8,595 bases of DNA from a virus (IMGVR_UViG_2778261121_000002); one strand, 5' to 3'; positions 23-8,595 are shown, counted from the first letter of the stretch. Numbers and translations are program-made. The notes: generated by a model not told the origin, from the letters alone.

Positions 23-838
23 ATGACAAAATCCTCCGTCGGCACAAGAAGAATAAATTCTTTAGTAACACATGCTTACCGCATTAATTCTGTTTATCAA
101 TTATTGGAACATGTAAACAATATCGGCAAAGGTATCTGCGTAACACCTCAAAAAATTGAGAAATCTCATTGGACGCCAATTTATTCAGGAGATAGAAGAA
201 ATCTTGGATATTCGTTTGCCTTTAAAAACAGGCTATCGATAGAGATATTCCTTATTACATTAATTGACTACATAGACTCAGGAAAAATATCCTCGCTAGA
301 GGATTCCAAATATATAACAGAGGACATTAAATATCTTGATCTTCTATACAAAAAAGTCCATCCGACTCAAGAAGAAATCAGCTACGACCTCCAGAGAGAA
401 GAAGTTGAGGAATATATAGAGGGCGAAACAAGATTAATCCAGTCGCAACATCGTAGCCGCGTATCCGGGTTAAGGAATGACGTTCTGGCAAACGCAGACT
501 ACAGGTGTCAATTATGTTGCAGAACGATGTCGGAAATATACGGCAAGGAAATTGACGGCAAAGAAACGAAAACGCTGCTACACGCTCACCACATCGTCCC
601 ACTTTCACAAGGCGAAGATGCACGAAGCGTGAACCCAAAAACAGATCTGATTGCCGTCTGCCCTAGCTGTCACGCAATACTTCACATCAACGGCAACAAG
701 GAAGCTATACCACGCGAGCGATTTTATGAATTGCGCAAAAAAATTGTCGGCAACCTTCAAAAGCAAGAAAACATAGACATAATGAACCTTGCATGTGATG
801 AAATTAGCAAAAAAGAGAAGAACAAAAACGCCAATTAA
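23..838 (+). CDS. HNH-motif nuclease with McrA-like C-terminal domain; N-terminal ~150 aa unassigned; possibly 5'-partial
   Basis: 271-codon ORF. C-terminus reads CQLC...HAHHIVPLS...N...CPSCH, the canonical HNH (Cys-x2-Cys / His-His / Asn / Cys-x2-Cys-His) pattern. The frame is open from position 2 to the first ATG at 23 and no Shine-Dalgarno precedes 23, so the true start may lie upstream of the window. Confidence 0.7.
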   Translation: MTKSSVGTRRINSLVTHAYRINSVYQLLEHVNNIGKGICVTPQKIEKSHWTPIYSGDRRNLGYSFAFKNRLSIEIFLITLIDYIDSGKISSLEDSKYITEDIKYLDLLYKKVHPTQEEISYDLQREEVEEYIEGETRLIQSQHRSRVSGLRNDVLANADYRCQLCCRTMSEIYGKEIDGKETKTLLHAHHIVPLSQGEDARSVNPKTDLIAVCPSCHAILHINGNKEAIPRERFYELRKKIVGNLQKQENIDIMNLACDEISKKEKNKNAN

Positions 839-1243: not shown

Positions 1244-1765
1244 ATGGTTAAAGACATCACCTACGGCATACCGGCTGAAGTATGGCCGCGAAACTACGAA
1301 CATGCTGAACGCACCTTGCTCTTCTGGCGGAGGGCTAAATTTCCTGTAAGAGTCACTCTCGAAGATGGCCAAGTGTTTTGCATGTACGTTTATGGTCTCA
1401 TGTCATCTCGTAACAAAGTTGACCTTTGTCCAACTCCATTTGACAAAGAAAATCGTATAAGGCTCCCACTTGAGCGCATTAGCACAATTGAATCAGGCGT
1501 AATTGATGGCATTGATTACGATTTCAAAGGGAGACTAACAATACACCCTGACTATGTAGACAACCAGCCATCACGTCGTGACTTTTTTAAGATATGTCGC
1601 AAGGCTTATCAAAACGGCCAATCTATAAGGGTCTACATGGCAGATGGCCGCGAAATTGAGGGAACGTCAGATGGCGTTGATGCCTGCCTAGTCACACTTA
1701 AGTTGAAAGACGGCAGAAAAATTCTTGTTTTCTTCGATTGGGTTGAACGAATTTTACCTTTTTGA
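1244..1765 (+). CDS. Hypothetical protein with two tandem Rof/YaeO-like repeats (putative modulator of Rho-dependent termination)
   Basis: 173-codon ORF with RBS aaaggtag 5-6 nt upstream and a TATAAT box at 1210-1215. Internal duplication (VRVTLEDGQ...SSRNKV...RIRLPLERIST versus IRVYMADGRE...VTLKLKDGRKI). The first repeat resembles E. coli Rof as I recall it (LTLELKDGEK...SRKNV...RELRLDKITS); this is from memory, not a search. Confidence 0.7.
   Translation: MVKDITYGIPAEVWPRNYEHAERTLLFWRRAKFPVRVTLEDGQVFCMYVYGLMSSRNKVDLCPTPFDKENRIRLPLERISTIESGVIDGIDYDFKGRLTIHPDYVDNQPSRRDFFKICRKAYQNGQSIRVYMADGREIEGTSDGVDACLVTLKLKDGRKILVFFDWVERILPF
1708..1758. repeat. 51-bp perfect direct repeat, copy 1 (3' end of the 1244-1765 CDS)
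   Basis: agacggcagaaaaattcttgttttcttcgattgggttgaacgaattttacc is identical at 1708-1758 and 2074-2124; flanking bases are also similar. Confidence 0.9.
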
Positions 1766-1768
1766 GTT

Positions 1769-2065
1769 ATGAAATCGATACTATTGACATCATTATTTTT
1801 AGTTTACTCAATTTCAGCCAATGCAAAGGATGATATCGCAATTATTCAGTCGCTGATGAATGACGTATGCTCAACGTCTCAGAATGTACCAGTTTGCATG
1901 TTTAAACTTTCAGCAGCTGTAAAACTAGGGATAAACATTGGTAAGACCGCTCAACTATGTGAACAAGTGGAAAATTATGAACCATGTGAATCGAACAACT
2001 CTTCTGTGCAGTTCGTTGATGCGTTATTTGACACCAATCGTAAGGCTGTAGAGTCAGTCCGATAA
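1769..2065 (+). CDS. Small secreted four-cysteine protein, paralog 1 (98 aa)
   Basis: N-terminal signal-peptide-like segment MKSILLTSLFLVYSISANA with an AxA cleavage motif. Mature part has four Cys in two pairs (C-x8-C ... C-x9-C). ATG lies 3 nt after the upstream stop with no Shine-Dalgarno, suggesting translational coupling. Confidence 0.65.
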   Translation: MKSILLTSLFLVYSISANAKDDIAIIQSLMNDVCSTSQNVPVCMFKLSAAVKLGINIGKTAQLCEQVENYEPCESNNSSVQFVDALFDTNRKAVESVR

Positions 2066-2721: not shown

Positions 2722-3372
2722 ATGGCTAACATTATCATTTCTAAAAAATCCATCATTGAAGCTGCTTCCATTGTATCCGATGAACTGCGCGAAAAAGCAG
2801 ATCTGGCAACTCAAACATATAACGAACATTATAAAAATGGTACGCACACTAAAGCAGACAAAGCAAATATGCAAGCTGCGACCACTAAACTTGCTTACTT
2901 CATCAACAACGTTGTAAACGCTGTAGAAGACGAAAAATTATGCTCTGTTTTCTACTATGCGATTAAAGCAAGCAAACAAGCGCCAGAAGTATTTTTCCGT
3001 GATGCTATGACTAATAGTTATTCACTGGAAAAACTGGTTTATCTGGTTAAATCCATTAAAGCTGGTAAATGTGTTTATTCCGTCGCTGATATGTCTGGAT
3101 CTCGTGTATTCGCTTTAATCGATATGATTAACGACGAGATCGACACGTTCACCAATGGCGCTGTTTTCGACTTAATGAATGAAGCTAAAAAAGCGTGTGA
3201 AATTAAATTGGACGTTGGCTATACTCAAGCCAACCAGTTGATCAATCTTTGCGAACGTCTTGGACTTGTTGAAAAAGTCAAAGGAATGGGAAGCGCCAAA
3301 GCTGGTACACAGCAATATCGCTTTATCAAGAATGATTTCTACAATTATTTAGCTGATGCTTTCAAAGCGTAA
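2722..3372 (+). CDS. Hypothetical protein (216 aa), first gene of a three-gene operon
   Basis: RBS taaggat 7 nt upstream of ATG. Long ORF with non-repetitive composition. No motif recognised by eye. Confidence 0.8.
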   Translation: MANIIISKKSIIEAASIVSDELREKADLATQTYNEHYKNGTHTKADKANMQAATTKLAYFINNVVNAVEDEKLCSVFYYAIKASKQAPEVFFRDAMTNSYSLEKLVYLVKSIKAGKCVYSVADMSGSRVFALIDMINDEIDTFTNGAVFDLMNEAKKACEIKLDVGYTQANQLINLCERLGLVEKVKGMGSAKAGTQQYRFIKNDFYNYLADAFKA

Positions 3373-3385
3373 TTAATGGAATCAT

Positions 3386-3405
3386 GCGCCCACTATGGGC
3401 GCTTT
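3386..3405 (+). promoter_or_regulatory. Intra-operon hairpin (attenuator or RNA-processing candidate)
   Basis: gcgccca-cta-tgggcgc followed by only ttt, then the RBS aaggag. The same 20-mer recurs at 3882-3901 as part of a terminator. Confidence 0.4.
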
Positions 3406-3644: not shown

Positions 3645-3875
3645 ATGTTTGTTCTTATCGCTGGCGTTAACGTCCATAACGAATATTATGTTAATCGCAT
3701 CGCTGGGATCGCTGGTTACGCTGGGCGCGCAGTCGCGCTTATAGATGAAACGACGCGCAAAATTGACTTATTGAGCGACCAGGAGCGAAAAAAAGCAGAC
3801 GTGAACGACGCTGATATATTTTTAATGTTAAAAGCGTTTGTAGAAATGGGATTTGAAATCAGTTTACATAAATAA
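3645..3875 (+). CDS. Hypothetical protein (76 aa)
   Basis: AAGGAG 7 nt upstream of ATG; followed directly by tandem terminators. Confidence 0.65.
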   Translation: MFVLIAGVNVHNEYYVNRIAGIAGYAGRAVALIDETTRKIDLLSDQERKKADVNDADIFLMLKAFVEMGFEISLHK

Positions 3876-3880
3876 AATCG

Positions 3881-3904
3881 AGCGCCCACTATGGGCGCTT
3901 TTTT
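3881..3904 (+). terminator. Rho-independent terminator 1 of the plus-strand operon
   Basis: 8-bp GC-rich stem agcgccca / tgggcgct with a 3-nt loop, then a run of six T. Confidence 0.75.
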
Positions 3905-3925
3905 CGTTTCCAATACTCCCACCAT

Positions 3926-3951
3926 AACGCGCCAATGATGGCGCGTTTTTT
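3926..3951 (+). terminator. Rho-independent terminator 2 (tandem)
   Basis: 9-bp stem aacgcgcca / tggcgcgtt, loop atga, then ttttttatt. Confidence 0.65.
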
Positions 3952-4053
3952 ATTGTCTTTAACTCACTCCAACAACATAAAAATAAGCGCAAAAAATAAC
4001 GCCATAGACGCGCTTTTATATCCTCGCCAGTATATACCCATTACTTAACATAT

Positions 4054-4074: not shown

Positions 4075-4123
4075 TATTGCGCTATAGAGTATGGTTAATC
4101 ATTGGCTTTTAGTCTTGCTTTAT

Positions 4124-4151
4124 GATCCGCGTTTATTTGTCGGCGCGGATC
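4124..4151. other. 8-bp inverted repeat carrying two GATC sites
   Basis: gatccgcg (4124-4131), 12 nt, cgcggatc (4144-4151). Confidence 0.45.
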
Positions 4152-4205
4152 GGCATTTCGTTTTGTTCCGTATCCGCTCGCGTATTATGTGCGCGTAATT
4201 TTTCA

Positions 4206-4240: not shown

Positions 4241-4364
4241 CTACGAAAGAAATCTGGATGTCTCAGGTGACGAAAGTCATCATAATTTTCCCCGCTCACC
4301 TGTCCGACAACCGCTGGTTGGATTCCACCAGCTTCCCGATGTTTTTTCTACATAAAGGCGAATG

Positions 4365-4486
4365 CAGCCGTTTCCCGAAAAAATCCTGGCCGTTTCCCGT
4401 CGGCTCATGAATACGTTCCTCGCCGTTTCTGAAAATTTCCCTGCGGCAGCTGGTGGCTATAGAGAAAGGGCCGTTTCTGGCCCTCT
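4365..4486. repeat. Iteron array 1: four direct copies of CCGTTTC(C/T)
   Basis: CCG of each copy starts at 4368, 4390, 4423 and 4471 (spacings 22, 33, 48 bp). Copy 3 reads ccgtttctgaaaatttccc. Confidence 0.6.
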
Positions 4487-4492
4487 TCTCAG

Positions 4493-4975
4493 TTACACGC
4501 CATCAAGGATGTGGATGCGGTTGCTTGCGTATACATTCAGCATAAAGTTAGCGCAAAACAGTTTCCATGTATCAACGCCAGCGGTATACGTAATGTTTTT
4601 GCATTTAATTGCATTGTTGGCGATCCGCATCCCCTGCGATACTGCTTCATCGTCGGAAAATTTGAACGACGATTGAGTTTTAATCCAGACAGAAATCTGC
4701 GTAGCGAACTCAATCAGCTTGGACTGGCAGAATCGCCCGGAGCGCACCGGAAAGACGAACGTTCCGAATCCAGAATTTACCACATATGCTTTCTCAAATA
4801 CCCGCGAGTAACGACGATTGCCAATGATGTCGCGTGCAATAATGCATTTTTCTTGTGCTGACAGTTCTACCGTCTCATTGTCGCGCCATGCACCAAGTAC
4901 TCGTTTTTCAATGTCAGAGAACGTTACAGCGATATTGCCATGTGCGGGTGCGTTTACAGTAGCGATAAAATTCAT
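4493..4975 (-). CDS. Hypothetical protein (160 aa)
   Basis: RBS aagga 7 nt upstream of ATG (minus strand); conserved promoter/leader module A upstream. Confidence 0.75.
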   Translation of the reverse strand: MNFIATVNAPAHGNIAVTFSDIEKRVLGAWRDNETVELSAQEKCIIARDIIGNRRYSRVFEKAYVVNSGFGTFVFPVRSGRFCQSKLIEFATQISVWIKTQSSFKFSDDEAVSQGMRIANNAIKCKNITYTAGVDTWKLFCANFMLNVYASNRIHILDGV

Positions 4976-5049
4976 GATTGATTCCTTATCGTAAATAACA
5001 AATTGTTTTCTTGTTGGTGTTAATTATCGTTGTACGAATAAGGCGTCAA
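4976..5049 (-). promoter_or_regulatory. Conserved promoter/leader module A
   Basis: Minus-strand reading: TTGACG, 15 nt, GATAAT, then TAACACCAACAAGAAAACAATTTGTT..., RBS, ATG. The core GATAAT + 10-11 nt + AGAAAACA is shared with modules B, C and D. Confidence 0.6.
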
Positions 5050-5063
5050 AGTGGAAAGTTACG

Positions 5064-5135
5064 GTAGCCGGACGGGAACAGGTGGGTTTGTCGGTTGCCT
5101 AGAGGTAAGAGGTTGGTGTTTTTAGCCTGCGGGGA
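5064..5135. repeat. Dispersed ~70-bp repeat, copy 1
   Basis: cggtagccgg...aggtgggtttgtcggttgcct...agaggttggtgttttt aligns with cggtagcctg...aggtgggtcttttcggtagcct...agaggttggttgttttt at 8246-8310. Confidence 0.5.
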
Positions 5136-5178
5136 ACAGGATGGTCATTTAAGGCCACCAGCATTGGCAGCCTATATA

Positions 5179-5478
5179 TCATTGCTTTCGATGTGCTGCA
5201 ACGAACTCTTTCAACGTTTCTAGCGCATGATAAAGACCGACGATATTCGAGCCGTAGTCGATGCAAACAGGGGAAAGTGATGTCTTCCCGTCGTGCGATG
5301 AATATGCCGATGTGGTAGTTGCAGGGAAATCGTGGCGATAGCAAACCGCAGTTTTTGGGTGTCGCAGATACGCTATCCCTCTTTCAAGATCATAAATTGC
5401 GCGTCGCAGGTCATGCTCCTGCGCTCTGGTCAATTTTGCCATCGTAATACTCTCACTTAATGCGGCAAAGCCAGCCAT
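5179..5478 (-). CDS. Hypothetical protein (99 aa; alternative start at 5442 gives 87 aa)
   Basis: ORF downstream of the 5525-5716 gene on the same strand, probably co-transcribed. The ATG at 5478 has a poor RBS; the in-frame ATG at 5442 is preceded by gagag. Confidence 0.55.
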   Translation of the reverse strand: MAGFAALSESITMAKLTRAQEHDLRRAIYDLERGIAYLRHPKTAVCYRHDFPATTTSAYSSHDGKTSLSPVCIDYGSNIVGLYHALETLKEFVAAHRKQ

Positions 5479-5524
5479 GATTCAAGGAATACATTTTGTG
5501 CTTTTGGGGTAATGGTGAAATCAG

Positions 5525-5716
5525 TCATCGTGCCCCCATCTCCTGCAACTGTGCAACGGTGATATCTGGACACAGCCCGTCGATCCACACCCACACGTCA
5601 ATGATGCTGTCACCGGCTTCAAAATGGTGAAATGCACGCTCAAGCTGCTGATTGTTATCCACAGGCTCATTTGCTAGCTGCGCCCAGATTTGCTGTACTT
5701 GAGTAATAGTTTTCAT
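5525..5716 (-). CDS. Hypothetical small protein (63 aa)
   Basis: RBS agagga 6 nt upstream of ATG; conserved module B directly upstream. Confidence 0.65.
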   Translation of the reverse strand: MKTITQVQQIWAQLANEPVDNNQQLERAFHHFEAGDSIIDVWVWIDGLCPDITVAQLQEMGAR

Positions 5717-5775
5717 CTGCTTTCCTCTTGTTTTCTTGTTGTTGTAATTATCGCAGTGTAGATAAGGTAGAAAAC
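5717..5775 (-). promoter_or_regulatory. Conserved promoter/leader module B
   Basis: Minus-strand reading: TGcGATAAT (extended -10), then TACAACAACAAGAAAACAAGAGGAAAGCAG, ATG. The -35 is weak. Confidence 0.5.
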
Positions 5776-5789
5776 AAATTGTTATCGGG

Positions 5790-5821
5790 TATAAGAAAAT
5801 GGCGCGGTTTACGCGCCATTT
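5790..5821 (-). terminator. Rho-independent terminator after the 5830-6225 gene
   Basis: 10-bp stem aaatggcgcg / cgcgccattt with loop gttta; on the minus strand it is followed by ttttcttat. Confidence 0.65.
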
Positions 5822-5829
5822 AAAGAGGA

Positions 5830-6225
5830 TTAAGCGAATACGCTTTCAGGGATTAAGGTATCAGCAGGAATGCCGGAGGTAATACGCAGACCGTACTGGC
5901 CAATCCAGGTGGTGCTGGTGTTCAGGCTGGAGGCGAATACGGTGTTAACCATATTCATCATGGTTTCAAACACCTCTTCATCAACCTGGCGGAAGTAGTT
6001 CTCGATTTTCAGCAGCAGCGGGTCAGTTGCATCGAGAATGGACTGGTATTGAGTCGCGTACTCGCCGCCGGAGGCATCACCTTTACGCACGATCGTACTG
6101 GCCTGTACTTCGGCACCAGTTTCGGTGTTGTACGTAACAACGGTGATTTTTGCCACATTCTTACCTTCGGCGGTTTCAGAGGCATAGTAAACATCAACTG
6201 TCAGTTTTTCGCGTTTAACGGTCAT
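5830..6225 (-). CDS. Hypothetical protein (131 aa), stand-alone transcription unit
   Basis: RBS ggag 6 nt upstream of ATG; its own near-consensus promoter upstream and terminators on both sides. Confidence 0.8.
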   Translation of the reverse strand: MTVKREKLTVDVYYASETAEGKNVAKITVVTYNTETGAEVQASTIVRKGDASGGEYATQYQSILDATDPLLLKIENYFRQVDEEVFETMMNMVNTVFASSLNTSTTWIGQYGLRITSGIPADTLIPESVFA

Positions 6226-6257
6226 TTCACTCTCCGTAGTGTATTGGTTATTTTTCT

Positions 6258-6286
6258 ATTCTATGATCGTAAGTATGTACTTACAA
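6258..6286 (-). promoter_or_regulatory. Near-consensus sigma70 promoter with embedded palindrome
   Basis: Minus-strand reading: TTGTAA, 17 nt, TAGAAT. The -35 and spacer contain the inverted repeat gtaagta-ca-tacttac (plus 6269-6284). Confidence 0.65.
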
Positions 6287-6287
6287 T

Positions 6288-6317
6288 ACAAAAAAGCCCC
6301 GTAAGGATGGCGGGGCT
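6288..6317 (-). terminator. Rho-independent terminator after the 6352-6663 gene
   Basis: 7-bp stem agccccg / cggggct with a 9-nt loop; on the minus strand it is followed by ttttttgtatt. Confidence 0.65.
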
Positions 6318-6351
6318 GTCGTACGGTCGACTAATTACCACTTGCACATTA

Positions 6352-6663
6352 TCAGGCTATTGCCATCACTGATGCTCTCTGAATCTCTTGCTGGGCCACG
6401 CGGTTAACTTCCATCAAAGCCAGTTCGAGCTGATGTTCCGGCCACATTCTTTGAAATGCCACCCAGCCTTTTCCACGCTGGCGACGAACATTCATTACAT
6501 AACGAGTAAAGGTGTTTTTATCGAAAGACACCGCTGTTTCACGGAACAGACGAATAGAGGTTCCATTGGCAACGATGTCCAGCAAAGTTAATTGAGCAAC
6601 CAGCGCAGGCTTCTCTTTTCTCTTCTGGTCTTTGTCCAGACCAAGAACCAATGATTTTTTCAT
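6352..6663 (-). CDS. Hypothetical protein (104 aa)
   Basis: Start taken at the ATG preceded by RBS acggag. The upstream in-frame ATG at 6693 lies inside conserved module C and lacks an RBS. Confidence 0.7.
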   Translation of the reverse strand: MKKSLVLGLDKDQKRKEKPALVAQLTLLDIVANGTSIRLFRETAVSFDKNTFTRYVMNVRRQRGKGWVAFQRMWPEHQLELALMEVNRVAQQEIQRASVMAIA

Positions 6664-6728
6664 CACAACTCCGTAAACAACTTGTTTTCTCAATGGCGTA
6701 AATAATACCAGTAAGAAAACGGCTACAA
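6664..6728 (-). promoter_or_regulatory. Conserved promoter/leader module C
   Basis: Minus-strand reading: TTGTAG, 15 nt, TGgTATTAT, then TTACGCCATTGAGAAAACAAGTTGTTTACGGAG..., ATG. Confidence 0.55.
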
Positions 6729-6789
6729 AGCATATTGATCAGGTGCATGAGCGATATGCAGGTTCTTCCCTGCGGCTACAGATTAAGTT

Positions 6790-6808
6790 AAGCCAGCAAT
6801 GCTGGCTT
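6790..6808. other. 8-bp stem hairpin just downstream of the 6818-7147 gene
   Basis: aagccagc-aat-gctggctt. No convincing U-tract on the minus strand, so function is uncertain. Confidence 0.35.
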
Positions 6809-6817
6809 TGGTTGTGA

Positions 6818-7147
6818 TTACGCGAATACCTCAAGAAACTCCTGAACGTCCCAATGCTGGACGAGGTGAAGATAGACCTTAGAAATCACGTCATTTTCGC
6901 TATCGCATGTGAAGTAGTACTTCTGGCTGCGGTTGTATGTGTCCACACAAAATTCGCTCATATCCATAAAGTCAGCATCTTCACCCAGGTCGCTGATCAT
7001 CAAAGCAGGTGCGTCATCACGAGTCATCAGTTCCAGCACCCATCTTGAATTGATCAGAGTGGAAGACCAACCTTCTAACTCATAAAACTGATCAAACTCT
7101 TTTTGAGTTAATTTCTTGATTTGGTTGATGTCGATATTTGTAAACAT
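6818..7147 (-). CDS. Hypothetical strongly acidic protein (109 aa)
   Basis: Start taken at the ATG preceded by aagga + 7 nt. The upstream ATG at 7168 lies inside module D. Hand count: 21 Asp/Glu against 8 Lys/Arg. Confidence 0.7.
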   Translation of the reverse strand: MFTNIDINQIKKLTQKEFDQFYELEGWSSTLINSRWVLELMTRDDAPALMISDLGEDADFMDMSEFCVDTYNRSQKYYFTCDSENDVISKVYLHLVQHWDVQEFLEVFA

Positions 7148-7212
7148 AAAGCAATCCTTAAACAACATGTTTTCTTGATGGTGTTATTATCGCAATAACG
7201 CATAGGCGAAAA
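7148..7212 (-). promoter_or_regulatory. Conserved promoter/leader module D
   Basis: Minus-strand reading: TGcGATAAT, then AACACCATCAAGAAAACATGTTGTTTAAGGATTGCTTT, ATG. Confidence 0.55.
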
Positions 7213-7473
7213 AGGATTTTGTTCCGGTAAATGTGGTTTTGGCAGTGAGTTTTCAGGTTCAGTACCGAGTACACTTTTTACATTATTCTGATTTAGTGGC
7301 CGAAAGTGGCTGGTGGCAGAGTAATCCTCTCCCCAAAAACCTACTGAAATCGATTGTGACCCGTTGGCTGTCTGGCACAATTACGCTGTAGCTGGGCATT
7401 CAGAGGGAATCCAGCGGTAAGCAAGTCCGCCTACGTGAGCGCCTCTCTTCTTCCCGCACATTACAGGTGGGTA

Positions 7474-7646
7474 GCCGCAACTTTCCCTCTCGCTATACCG
7501 GTACGCCACCGTTCCTGAAACGGCATCGAGCCTTCTCCCGAAATCCACACAGGCAACTCGACCGTTTCCCTGAAAATCCCCAGCCGTTCCCCGAAGGCAA
7601 CCCAGCCGTTTCTGTAGCGGGATGCAACCTTTTCCCTGTATGGACG
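7474..7646. repeat. Iteron array 2: about seven direct copies of CCGTTTCCC(T)GAAAA-like units with 22-bp phasing
   Basis: Copies begin near 7476, 7509, 7531, 7562, 7584, 7606 and 7628 (spacings 33, 22, 31, 22, 22, 22), e.g. accgtttccctgaaaatcccc, agccgttccccgaaggc, agccgtttctgtagcgg. Confidence 0.65.
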
Positions 7647-7689
7647 AAGGCTGACCGTAGGGGTGTTACGGGGGATAAAATCAGGAGTT

Positions 7690-7724: not shown

Positions 7725-7756
7725 CCCTCCCCACTTATACATACCTGTCTTGTTCG

Positions 7757-7790
7757 CTATACATGTTGTGTTTTCTTCGTGTTTTATCTG
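7757..7790 (-). promoter_or_regulatory. Degenerate fifth copy (module E) of the conserved promoter/leader motif
   Basis: Minus-strand reading: GATAAA-ACACGA-AGAAAACA-CAACATG. It shares the AGAAAACA core but has different spacing and no downstream gene. Confidence 0.3.
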
Positions 7791-8245
7791 TTTCAACCTC
7801 TCTATAGGCGTTAATGCTCACTCCTTCCAGAACGTTCTATACGGCGACTATTTCTGTTGGTGAATTGGGTGTGTTGTTTCCCTGTCGGTGTATGTGGTTT
7901 CGTTAGTTTTGCGGTGGTTCTTCTATGGGGTGTTCTCGTCGTTTTGGTGATTGTTCTTCTCCGTGTATGGAGTAATAGCAGGTGGGCGATTGCTTTCGTT
8001 ATTGTGTTTGAGTTGTTTGACTGGAGTGTGTGGAAGGCTTTTGTAGTTATTCGTGTATTGGGTAATGGCATTTCCCGTGATTGTTATGTTTCGTGTCTTT
8101 TGGGATTGAGAGAAGCCTTGCGGTTACAGGCTTCGTTGGGGTTTCAGCGGTTCAGGTGTTTCTTCGCTGTTTGGGTAATGGCGTGTCGTGGGTATCGCGC
8201 GTATGAATGTTTTCGGATTGCCTGTGAAAGTTAGGTTGGTTGTCC

Positions 8246-8310
8246 GGTAGCCTGGGGAGAAGAGGTGGGTCTTTTCGGTAGCCTGCCATAAAGAGGTTGG
8301 TTGTTTTTGG
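8246..8310. repeat. Dispersed ~70-bp repeat, copy 2 (internal sub-repeat cggtagcctg twice)
   Basis: Aligns with 5064-5135; see copy 1. Confidence 0.5.
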
Positions 8311-8322
8311 AAATAGCATTTG

Positions 8323-8339
8323 TGTTATTTAGTTGTTTT
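8323..8339. repeat. 17-bp direct repeat tgttatttagttgtttt (second copy at 8554-8570)
   Basis: Identical 17-mer at both positions with similar flanks (ttat follows both). Confidence 0.45.
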
Positions 8340-8500
8340 GTTATGCCTGAAAATAAGTTGTTTATACGGTTGTGTAACGCAACGGGAGCGATTTTGAGCG
8401 TGTGTTTTTGTTGGTAGTGTGTTGGGTCGTCTGTGGTGAAAATTGGACGCTGTGGCGCTGTCTGCTGCGTAGAGTTACGGGTATAAGAAATGATGTGTGA

Positions 8501-8545
8501 AAACGTCAATTTTTTAGACCAAATCGGGTGAAAGCGTTGACGTTT
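8501..8545. other. 9-bp inverted repeat aaacgtcaa / ttgacgttt separated by 27 bp
   Basis: Perfect inverted repeat. The loop is too long for a typical terminator, so it is more likely a protein-binding dyad. Confidence 0.4.
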
Positions 8546-8595
8546 CGTTGATCTGTTATTTAGTTGTTTTCTTATTTGTATAAACAACCATAACC

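What the first reader, a model, noticed from the sequence alone, without database searches (positions are those of the whole stretch)
5064..5135. Roughly 70-bp dispersed repeat family shared between the gene block and the GT-rich tail
5064-5135 and 8246-8310 align over cggtagcc...aggtgggt...cgg-t(t/a)gcct...agaggttggt(g/t)gttttt, and copy 2 contains an internal duplication. Dispersed intergenic repeats in direct orientation can be recombination substrates, binding sites, or small mobile repeat elements.
Basis: seen in the sequence. Interest (0 to 1): 0.5.

Follow-up and report, generated by a model that had tools for sequence, protein, structure and literature searches.

The report
Paired triplet repeat arrays in phage-plasmid
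The two similar stretches are real: each is a row of three ~30-bp repeats with a conserved 23-bp core, found at the same two places in every SSU5/pHCM2/pMT1-type phage-plasmid, and they look most like docking sites for an unidentified DNA-binding protein, not like mobile or recombining repeats.

Summary
The window is part of an SSU5/pHCM2-like phage-plasmid of E. coli. The "70-bp repeat" is a ~30-bp unit with a 23-bp bipartite core, TWGCCTG-N5-A-NN-AGGWKGGT. Three tandem copies sit at each locus: B1 at 5065-5145 and B2 at 8218-8301, all in one orientation. That is six matches against 0.03 expected by chance.

In phage Cyrano (108 kb) the unit forms arrays only at these two loci. Both arrays are kept in E. 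coli, Klebsiella, Salmonella (SSU5), Kluyvera and Buttiauxella elements. B1 is also kept in Yersinia pestis pMT1. Core positions are nearly invariant, the middle varies, spacing is always 28-31 bp, and unit number ranges from 2 to 4.

- There is no RNA structure.
- The units are unrelated to the RepA iterons.
- They show no mobile-element features.
- The longest exact B1/B2 match is 11 bp, and no B1xB2 deletion was seen.

B1 lies between a conserved RNA hairpin and the putative promoter of a conserved 160-aa gene. B2 lies in a conserved, untranslated GT-rich region. The arrays bracket a hypervariable block of small genes.

Best reading (about 40%): arrays of protein-binding sites with a regulatory or architectural role. 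The main rival is a C-rich Rho-loading module. The binding protein was not identified.

The parts
5065..5087 (+). B1 unit 1, TAGCCGGACGGGAACAGGTGGGT. This is the unit nearest the putative promoter of the 160-aa gene.
   Evidence: PWM and pattern hits. Orthologous unit present in all 77 related loci.
5095..5117 (+). B1 unit 2, TTGCCTAGAGGTAAGAGGTTGGT.
5123..5145 (+). B1 unit 3, TAGCCTGCGGGGAACAGGATGGT.
   Evidence: (family D5). This unit is truncated in phage SSU5 by a different neighbouring insert.
8218..8240 (+). B2 unit 1, TTGCCTGTGAAAGTTAGGTTGGT.
8248..8270 (+). B2 unit 2, TAGCCTGGGGAGAAGAGGTGGGT.
   Evidence: Duplicated in some relatives, giving 4-unit arrays (L013, L025).
8279..8301 (+). 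B2 unit 3, TAGCCTGCCATAAAGAGGTTGGT.
5153..5172 (-). Conserved stem-loop directly next to B1 (GGCYRCCA-N4-TGGTGGCC on the minus strand). It marks the edge of the conserved block.
   Evidence: Present in all lineages. It shows compensatory C-G to U-A changes and several G.U wobbles that pair only on the minus strand. It has no U-tract.
5023..5049 (-). Putative sigma-70-type promoter of the 160-aa gene: TTGACG at 5049-5044 and GATAAT at 5028-5023, with a 15-nt spacer.
   Evidence: Conserved across lineages and shared with other minus-strand small genes (D1/D6). It was NOT flagged by the consensus scan, so it is inferred.
4493..4975 (-). Conserved 160-aa gene (PHROG 1641, function unknown) bracketed by A1 and B1.
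4368..4483 (+). A1 array: four CCGTTYCY units (4368, 4390, 4423, 4471). The last unit overlaps the minus-strand terminator hairpin of the 160-aa gene (4483-4468).
   Evidence: (D3). Part of the block 4356-5173 conserved in 769 plasmids.
7509..7650 (+). A2 array: CCGTTYCY units at 7509, 7562, 7584 and 7606, plus a degenerate unit at 7628 (22-bp period).
   Evidence: (D3). Conserved in SSU5, Kluyvera and Buttiauxella.
7730..8217 (.). Non-coding spacer between A2 and B2, GT-rich on the plus strand and CA-rich on the minus strand.
   Evidence: Composition. Frame-breaking indels between lineages. RefSeq annotates nothing here. A minus-strand terminator lies at 7727-7701.
8302..8595 (.). Conserved non-coding flank to the right of B2. 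It contains two copies of TGTTATTTAGTTGTTTT and the conserved blocks GGTATAAGA and AAAACGTCAA.
   Evidence: (D11).

Best explanation
The two arrays are cis-acting rows of binding sites for one sequence-specific DNA-binding protein, encoded by the phage-plasmid or by the host. Each ~30-bp unit offers a bipartite site: TCGG-TAGCCTG, about 8 variable purine-rich bp, then AGGTGGGT-CTTTT. Three units spaced roughly three helical turns apart would place the bound proteins on about the same face of the helix and favour cooperative binding.

B1 sits directly upstream of the putative promoter of the conserved 160-aa gene, with unit centres roughly 50-110 bp upstream of the -10. It is insulated from the upstream genes by an RNA hairpin, so it probably acts as an upstream operator or activator array for that gene. 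B2, 1.4-4.5 kb away in a conserved untranslated control region, would be the distal partner. Occupying both arrays could bridge or loop the intervening hypervariable block of small, individually promoted genes.

Shown: the repeat anatomy, its conservation, its restriction to this family and its position. Inferred: protein binding, the regulatory role and looping. The binding protein is unknown.
For: - Significance and anatomy: 6 units against 0.03 expected; alignment z of about 13.
- In 77 distinct 23-nt units (127 when 8 nt of flank on each side are included), T1, G3, C4, C5, T6, G7, A13, A16, G17, G18, G21, G22 and T23 are nearly invariant. Positions 8-12, 14, 15 and 20 vary.
- In orthologous columns of 56 distinct B2 sequences, the majority-base fraction is 0.92 for core positions (0.98 for units 2-3), 0.75 for variable positions and 0.72-0.86 for the flanks.
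- Unit spacing is 28-31 bp in 122 of 125 unit-to-unit intervals (the others 26, 32 and 60 bp), with 2-4 units per array.
- Units evolve independently. Pairwise identity is 12-18 of 23 both within and between arrays.
- No RNA structure: MFE z between -0.8 and +0.3 on both strands, and alifold energy near 0.
- In Cyrano the unit forms arrays only at these two loci.
- The arrays are conserved in Klebsiella, SSU5, Kluyvera, Buttiauxella and pMT1 while adjacent DNA is replaced.
- B1 always lies between the hairpin and the conserved -35/-10 of the 160-aa gene.
- The region covering B2 (CYRAN_103) is at the detection floor in the Cyrano lysogen transcriptome, which favours a DNA-level role (PMC9928086, supplementary table).
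Against: - No binding protein was identified. The neighbouring proteins have no recognisable DNA-binding domain. The 160-aa protein has no structural neighbour. The 103-aa protein gives only weak, non-specific fold hits.
- B2 has no conserved promoter at the position B1 has, so a simple upstream-activator model does not cover both arrays.
- The units are not dyad-symmetric, unlike most operators.
- B2 is missing from pMT1 and from at least one natural variant, so any B1-B2 cooperation is dispensable.
- The promoter next to B1 is inferred from conservation and was not called by the consensus scan.
- The pyrimidine-rich, G-poor minus strand fits an RNA-level reading equally well.
Confidence: 0.4

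Rival explanations
1. RNA-level module for Rho-dependent termination. Read on the minus (coding) strand, each array is about 90 nt of unstructured, C-rich, G-poor RNA with three pyrimidine tracts (ACCCACCUCUUCUCCCC...). Rho loads there and stops transcripts leaving the upstream genes. The 3' end is then trimmed back to the adjacent U-tract-less hairpin, which insulates the next promoter.
For: - Minus-strand composition of B1 and B2 is C 38-40% and G 14% (C/G about 2.7), and the whole of 7841-8542 is a C>G region.
- The predicted RNA is essentially unstructured: -10 kcal/mol for 91-94 nt, with z near 0.
- B1 directly follows a hairpin that pairs as RNA on the minus strand only (wobble and compensatory changes) and lacks a U-tract. 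From my knowledge of Rho-dependent 3' ends, this is the usual architecture.
- The variable positions stay pyrimidine on that strand.
Against: - Rho loading sites are degenerate, whereas here specific positions, including conserved purines (CAGGCUA), are nearly invariant across genera, and the 28-31-nt period is strict.
- Other small genes in the block end in ordinary intrinsic terminators and need no such module (sequence at 5826-5797 and 6320-6290).
- The B2 region is not detectably transcribed in lysogens.
- No conserved canonical promoter feeds B2.
Confidence: 0.2
2. Part of a composite cis-acting site used in the phage (lytic) life cycle, such as recognition arrays for a lytic replication initiator or for the packaging machinery, working together with the A arrays and the other repeats of the GT-rich non-coding region.
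For: - The ~1.4-kb region is non-coding, silent in lysogens and packed with several direct-repeat families: A with a 22-bp period, B with a 30-bp period, and GTAATGGC.
- It is conserved in 839 plasmids but absent from pMT1, which I know as a plasmid without a phage cycle (my background knowledge).
- A and B occur only at these two loci in the genome.
- The A core CGTTTCC resembles the lambda cosB R sites. This is from memory only.
Against: - There are no DnaA boxes or AT-rich unwinding element and no genome-wide skew switch here.
- The terminase genes are 9-14 kb away, and the helicase/primase module is about 60 kb away.
- B1 is kept in pMT1.
- B2 is lost in a natural variant.
- Contig ends near the region are explained by an assembly break next to metG, not by genome termini.
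Confidence: 0.13
3. Passive recombination anchors. The arrays have no function of their own and persist as conserved linker sequence at which related phage-plasmids exchange the variable gene block, or at which B1xB2 crossover deletes it.
For: - Homology to Klebsiella elements ends right at the hairpin beside B1.
- At least seven unrelated sequences abut that point in relatives.
- In SSU5 the junction falls inside B1 unit 3.
- The B1-B2 distance ranges from 1.4 to 4.5 kb.
Against: - The longest exact B1/B2 match is 11 bp. That is below the ~25 bp I recall as needed for efficient RecA recombination.
- No deletion product was found in 56 loci.
- Position-specific conservation with a variable middle indicates selection on the motif itself.
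- The shared promoter/5'UTR modules in front of each small gene offer longer and better homology for exchange (D1/D6).
Confidence: 0.08
4. RfaH-recruiting ops-like elements. Many units read CGGTAGnnTG, which matches positions 3-12 of the ops element (GGCGGTAGnnTG, from memory). Three tandem copies would load the host antiterminator RfaH on RNA polymerase.
For: 48 of 127 distinct extended units contain CGGTAGnnTG. The hosts are all Enterobacterales, which use RfaH and ops (the ops consensus is from memory).
Against: - ops acts on the non-template strand. Here the motif lies on the template strand of every neighbouring annotated gene.
- None of the 127 units has the full 12-mer.
- Half of the units lack the CGG prefix.
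- No plus-strand operon lies downstream.
Confidence: 0.03

Closest known systems
Tripartite operator regions OL and OR of lambdoid phages
   Same: Two arrays of three adjacent protein-binding sites lie a few kb apart on a temperate phage genome and flank a block of accessory or immunity genes. One array is next to a promoter. Such arrays are known to cooperate by looping.
   Different: Lambda operators are 17-bp near-palindromes spaced about 24 bp apart, they overlap divergent promoters, and OL and OR are mutually inverted. Here the units are asymmetric, have a 30-bp period and are in direct orientation. Only B1 is near a promoter, and it lies upstream of it rather than over it. No repressor is known.
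Plasmid and phage iteron arrays (for example P1 oriR/incA, P4 ori/crr)
   Same: Tandem direct repeats in helical register, present as two separated clusters on a phage-plasmid. Array copy number varies.
   Different: The RepA iterons of this element have a different sequence (ACTATAGTGGAT type) and flank repA about 35 kb away. No initiator gene adjoins B1 or B2. B2 is dispensable in pMT1.
Rho-dependent terminators (rut sites, for example lambda tR1)
   Same: A C-rich, G-poor, unstructured stretch of about 90 nt on the coding strand lies just downstream of a gene end and a U-tract-less hairpin.
   Different: rut sites are not built from strictly periodic units with invariant positions conserved across genera.
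RfaH ops / JUMPStart element
   Same: Shares the 10-nt string CGGTAGnnTG. Occurs in tandem copies and in enterobacterial hosts.
   Different: The motif is on the wrong strand relative to all local genes, the first two G of ops are missing, and the motif is only part of a longer conserved unit.
res sites of Tn3-family resolvases
   Same: Two copies in direct orientation, each with three protein-binding subsites spread over about 85-120 bp.
   Different: The res subsites are dyad-symmetric and unequal in length, and a resolvase gene adjoins them. None of this applies here, and no excision products were seen.

Membership tests
Rep-protein iterons of the plasmid replicon | Same sequence as the repeats flanking the rep gene, and located at the origin | tested here: not met
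   The repeats around Cyrano repA (60.1-62.4 kb) are of the ACTATAGTGGAT type. B and A motifs are absent there.
Rep-protein iterons of the plasmid replicon | Tandem direct repeats in constant helical register | tested here: met
   Spacing is 28-31 bp in 122 of 125 unit-to-unit intervals (the others 26, 32 and 60 bp).
Rep-protein iterons of the plasmid replicon | Required for plasmid maintenance | tested here: not met
   B2 and the GT-rich region are absent from all 55 pMT1 records and from variant L079. B1 was not tested.
Lambda-type tripartite operators | Three sites per array, two arrays kb apart on a temperate element | tested here: met
   3+3 units, 3.1 kb apart in the window and 1.4-4.5 kb apart in relatives.
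Lambda-type tripartite operators | Each site is a near-palindrome for a dimeric repressor | tested here: not met
   The units are asymmetric. Only 3-4 bp (GCCT/AGGT) are self-complementary.
Lambda-type tripartite operators | Sites overlap the regulated promoters | tested here: not met
   B1 lies upstream of the putative -35 with a 15-nt gap (B1 starts at 5065; the TTGACG ends at 5049). No conserved promoter lies at B2.
Lambda-type tripartite operators | A cognate repressor binds the sites | not testable with these tools
   This needs EMSA, footprinting or ChIP.
Rho-dependent terminator (rut) | About 80 nt of C>G, unstructured RNA on the transcribed strand | tested here: met
   C 36-35 against G 13 in 91-94 nt. 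MFE is about -10 kcal/mol, with z near 0.
Rho-dependent terminator (rut) | Located in a transcribed, untranslated stretch downstream of a gene | tested here: inconclusive
   B1 follows a gene end and an RNA hairpin. The B2 region is at the expression floor in lysogens, and no canonical promoter was found.
Rho-dependent terminator (rut) | Termination depends on Rho | not testable with these tools
   This needs Term-seq with and without bicyclomycin.
RfaH ops element | 12-nt GGCGGTAGnnTG | tested here: not met
   0 of 127 units have the 12-mer, and 48 of 127 have positions 3-12. The consensus is from memory.
RfaH ops element | On the non-template strand downstream of an operon promoter | tested here: not met
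   The motif strand is the template strand of all neighbouring genes.
Small mobile repeat (MITE/REP-like) | Many dispersed copies, terminal inverted repeats or a palindromic unit, variable insertion sites | tested here: not met
   Two arrays per genome at fixed orthologous positions. Inverted-repeat and fold analyses were negative. Arrays are absent outside the family in IMG/VR.
Structured non-coding RNA | Stable or covarying secondary structure, or an Rfam match | tested here: not met
   No Rfam hit at either locus. z-scores are near 0 and alifold energy near 0.
Tn3-type res site | Three dyad-symmetric subsites with an adjacent resolvase, and excision between direct copies | tested here: not met
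   The units are asymmetric. There is no recombinase in the window. No deletion products were seen.

The most novel reading that the evidence does not exclude
The B arrays, together with the A arrays that sit ~570-670 nt to the left of each of them in nearly all related loci checked, form a family-specific nucleoprotein scaffold. This scaffold would bracket and co-regulate (by looping or insulation) a hypervariable bay of small early or anti-defence-type genes in SSU5/pHCM2/pMT1 phage-plasmids. It would be bound by a still-uncharacterised small protein encoded inside the bay. One candidate is the basic 103-aa protein, whose predicted sheet-plus-helix fold weakly resembles AP2 and integrase arm-binding domains. 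That would make it a new regulator/operator system with no sequence relative outside this family.
Probability: 0.15. Interest if true: 0.6.

Novelty: new member of a known kind. Interest (0 to 1): 0.38.

Why it matters
SSU5/pHCM2-type phage-plasmids are common in clinical E. coli, Klebsiella, Enterobacter and Salmonella, and they gave rise to Yersinia pestis pMT1. More than 750 sequenced plasmids carry these arrays. Their regulation is almost unstudied, and nearly all genes around the arrays are 'hypothetical'. A conserved, family-specific cis-element that marks both edges of the most variable gene block gives a concrete handle for three things:
- finding the regulator of that block;
- defining module boundaries in comparative genomics;
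- detecting and typing these elements and their fragments.

If the function turns out to be Rho loading or simple insulation, the result is ordinary.

Tried and rejected
- Segmental duplication. The interiors of the two A...B blocks share nothing at DNA or protein level.
- A units as inverted B units. One A2 unit scores 18 with the B PWM on the opposite strand, and one 26-nt inverted match has E=0.32. This is not conserved in relatives, so it was dropped.
- Plasmid-origin iterons. Rejected, because the RepA iterons differ.
- RNA element. No Rfam, tRNA or fold signal.
- CsrB-like GGA sponge for the A arrays on the minus strand. Not pursued, because expression there is low in the published transcriptome.
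- RfaH ops. The motif is on the wrong strand.
- Lytic origin. No DnaA boxes, unwinding element or skew switch.
- Genome termini inferred from contig ends. Four metagenome contigs from one sample start at one homologous position just outside the window, in the region next to metG. I read this as an assembly break rather than a physical genome end, but that is an inference, not a test.
- The single-unit scan of species-representative genomes was too degenerate.
- Literature searches found no description of these repeats.
- The antibiotic-resistance insertion hotspot of SSU5-like elements is a different locus, near PhoH and the DNA ligase.

Full report
**Source.** The window matches SSU5/pHCM2-type phage-plasmids. 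Escherichia phage Cyrano (pLF82) matches at 94.6% identity, and 784 PLSDB plasmids from Klebsiella, Escherichia, Enterobacter, Yersinia, Salmonella and others also match. In Cyrano the region lies between the methionyl-tRNA synthetase gene and the UvsW-like helicase and ParB-like genes. It is far from repA (about 61 kb) and 9-14 kb from the terminase genes.

**Checking the observation.** The alignment of 5064-5135 with 8246-8310 scores 48. Two thousand shuffles gave 14.6 +/- 2.6 and none reached 48. The second locus is the best match for the first anywhere in the window.

The repeat finder and a position weight matrix show a shorter real unit. It is a 23-bp core repeated three times at each locus with a 28-31-bp period. 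The units are at 5065, 5095 and 5123 (B1) and at 8218, 8248 and 8279 (B2), all on one strand. The degenerate pattern TWGCCN10AGGNKGGT finds exactly these six sites against 0.03 expected. The 'internal duplication in copy 2' is simply the tandem structure that both loci share.

**Restriction and conservation.**
- In the 108-kb Cyrano genome the pattern hits only the two arrays plus one isolated match inside metG.
- I fetched 77 IMG/VR loci through the adjacent 160-aa gene (67-100% protein identity). Every one has B1 110-170 nt upstream of that gene. Most have B2 1.4-4.5 kb further on.
- The same holds for Klebsiella phage pJN2-26, Salmonella phage SSU5, and Kluyvera and Buttiauxella contigs.
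- A two-unit pattern scan of all IMG/VR contigs returned 70 stretches. Every one I checked is SSU5-like, either on a contig already recovered through the 160-aa gene or confirmed by comparison with the window, except one chance hit inside a coding repeat.
Its only multi-hit loci were on Kluyvera and Buttiauxella contigs.

**Anatomy of the unit.** Among 77 distinct 23-nt units (127 when 8 nt of flank on each side are included), positions 1, 3-7, 13, 16-18 and 21-23 are nearly invariant. Positions 8-12, 14, 15 and 20 vary but stay purine-rich. The spacer is also biased: TCGG before the unit and (C/G)TTTT after it.

In orthologous columns of 56 distinct B2 sequences, the majority-base fraction is 0.92 for core positions (0.98 in units 2-3). 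It is 0.75 for variable positions and 0.72-0.86 for the flanks. Spacing is 28-31 bp in 122 of 125 unit-to-unit intervals (the others 26, 32 and 60 bp), and arrays have 2-4 units, with clear single-unit duplications. Units within an array are no more alike than units of different arrays (12-18 of 23 identical), so there is no homogenisation.

**Context of B1.** The following is read on the minus strand, which is the coding strand here. The gene upstream of B1 differs between relatives: at least seven unrelated sequences abut the same point. Then comes a stem-loop that is conserved everywhere. It shows compensatory C-G to U-A changes and several G.U wobbles that pair only on the minus strand, so it works as RNA. 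It has no U-tract.

B1 follows directly. After it come a conserved TTGACG and GATAAT, a conserved leader containing the palindrome AACAANTTGTT, and the 160-aa gene. The consensus promoter scan did not call this promoter, so it is inferred from conservation. Downstream of the gene are a terminator hairpin and the A1 array of CCGTTYCY units. The whole block 4356-5173 is the unit of conservation. It is found nearly full-length in 768 of 769 matching plasmids, including 55 Yersinia pestis pMT1 records.

**Context of B2.** B2 lies in a ~1.4-kb region that RefSeq leaves unannotated. That region is GT-rich on the plus strand and is the strongest local skew in Cyrano. Its indels between lineages break any reading frame. 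To its left are a minus-strand intrinsic terminator (7727-7701) and the A2 array. To its right are further conserved blocks.

This region occurs in 839 plasmids but in no Yersinia record. It has also been partly replaced, with loss of B2, in IMG/VR locus L079. In the published Cyrano lysogen transcriptome, the ORF call that overlaps B2 (CYRAN_103) is at the detection floor, while the 160-aa gene (CYRAN_111) is moderately expressed (PMC9928086).

**What the arrays are not.**
- *Not plasmid-origin iterons.* The repeats around repA have a different sequence.
- *Not structured RNA.* There are no Rfam or tRNA hits, MFE z-scores lie between -0.8 and +0.3 on either strand, and alifold energies are near zero.
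- *Not a segmental duplication.* The interiors of the two A...B blocks share nothing.
- *Not mobile repeats.* There are two fixed positions per genome and no terminal repeats.
- *Poor recombination substrates.* The longest shared exact run is 11 bp, and no locus shows a B1xB2 deletion. Loci that lack B2 within reach either have a longer intervening block or the L079-type replacement.
- *No classical origin features nearby.* There are no DnaA boxes and no AT-rich element.

**Most likely mechanism.** The pattern is two short invariant blocks separated by a tolerant stretch, repeated in strict register. It is conserved at orthologous positions while neighbouring DNA turns over, and it has no RNA structure. 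This is what arrays of sequence-specific protein-binding sites look like.

B1's place just upstream of a conserved promoter and behind an insulating hairpin suggests an upstream operator or activator array for the 160-aa gene. B2 would be a distal array of the same sites. The closest analogy is the pair of tripartite operators OL and OR of lambdoid phages, which cooperate by looping. However, the units here are asymmetric, direct and differently spaced, and no repressor is known. I put this explanation at about 0.4.

**Main rival.** On the coding strand both arrays are about 90 nt of unstructured RNA with C 38-40% and G 14%. B1 follows a U-tract-less RNA hairpin. That is the usual look of a Rho-dependent terminator whose 3' end is trimmed back to a protective stem-loop. 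Three things argue against this reading:
- the position-specific invariance, which includes conserved purines;
- the strict period;
- the transcriptional silence at B2.

I put it at about 0.2.

**Lesser rivals.**
- A lytic-cycle cis-site acting together with the A arrays: 0.13. The absence from pMT1 and the density of repeats count for it. The lack of origin features, the distance from the replication and packaging genes, and the retention of B1 in pMT1 count against it.
- Passive mosaic anchors: 0.08.
- RfaH ops-like elements: 0.03. CGGTAGnnTG occurs in 48 of 127 units, but on the template strand of all local genes.

**Search for the binder.**
- Of ten neighbouring proteins, only the FljA-like regulator has a family assignment.

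**Novelty.** Searches of the held literature found no description of these repeats. The element is a new, family-specific member of a familiar class, tandem cis-acting site arrays. Its function and partner are unknown. Interest is moderate.

Noticed in passing
window 4368-4483 and 7509-7650: A second repeat family (A) has the core CCGTTYCY, a 22-bp period and sits on the plus strand only. It gives 8 hits against 0.72 expected. In Cyrano it occurs only at these two loci, and in nearly all related loci checked each array lies ~570-670 nt to the left of a B array. On the minus strand the units read (C)AGGGAAAC. The core resembles the lambda cosB R sites, from memory only.
   Followed up: partly
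window 4976-5051, 5717-5800, 6664-6730, 7148-7215: Each small minus-strand gene is preceded by a shared promoter/leader module: GCGATAAT, about 10 nt, then AAGAAAACAA-N-TTGTT. The operator-like palindrome AACAANTTGTT is at 4997, 5773 and 6676. Related copies lie at 8323-8374 and 8554-8590. This looks like a common repressor-controlled early-gene cassette design.
   Followed up: partly
window 5153-5172 (minus strand): A stem-loop beside B1 is conserved in all lineages. It has compensatory changes and G.U wobbles that pair only on the minus strand, and no U-tract. It is probably an RNA 3'-end or insulator element. Several variants happen to contain a Chi octamer.
   Followed up: yes
window 7730-8595: A conserved non-coding GT-rich (plus strand) region is present in 839 plasmids, unannotated in RefSeq and absent from Yersinia pMT1. 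It carries the strongest local GC/AT skew of the Cyrano genome and has no GATC between 7091 and 8549. A GTAATGGC-like motif recurs about five times. Cyrano's two ORF calls here are probably spurious.
   Followed up: partly
window 5179-7147; loci L007-L083: The block of small genes between B1 and A2 is hypervariable. The B1-B2 distance ranges from 1.4 to 4.5 kb, and at least seven different genes abut the hairpin. The minimal variants L078 and L082 keep only the 103-aa gene. All products are of unknown function.
   Followed up: partly
window 1707-1770 and 2073-2136: A 64-nt direct duplication (94% identity) of the 3' end of the FljA-like regulator gene brackets a 98-aa secreted-type protein gene (1769-2065). 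A paralogous 99-aa gene follows at 2141-2440. This is the footprint of a tandem gene duplication or insertion.
   Followed up: no
window 4325, 4449, 5155, 7309; whole Cyrano genome: Chi octamers (GCTGGTGG) are about 10-fold enriched in the phage-plasmid: 25 against 2.6 expected. Four fall in this window.
   Followed up: partly
locus L206 (NZ_CP102995.1, 5720-6100): A ~380-nt fragment of the GT-rich region, including a two-unit B2 array, is trapped between IS elements in a Klebsiella IncFIB/IncHI1B plasmid. Fragments of this kind may explain part of the 119 extra Klebsiella records that match the B2 region but not the B1 block; only this one record was examined.
   Followed up: partly
locus L084 (SSU5) 4082-4160; locus L205 (pMT1) 8318-8776: In SSU5 the third B1 unit is truncated by a plus-strand 'repressor-like' gene insert. 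In pMT1 an IS1541 and a rearrangement replace everything beyond one cassette, removing A2, the GT-rich region and B2.
   Followed up: partly
window 3372-3405 and 3868-3901: Two copies of the terminator-like hairpin GCGCCCACTATGGGCGCTTT (85% identity over 34 nt) follow two consecutive plus-strand genes. A weak sub-threshold Rfam hit (Hrs1, E=0.004) overlaps 3888-3954 on the minus strand.
   Followed up: no
window 23-838: An HNH-endonuclease ORF at the left end is present in only a few relatives. Most alignments start at 789 or 859, so it is probably a homing-type insertion.
   Followed up: no
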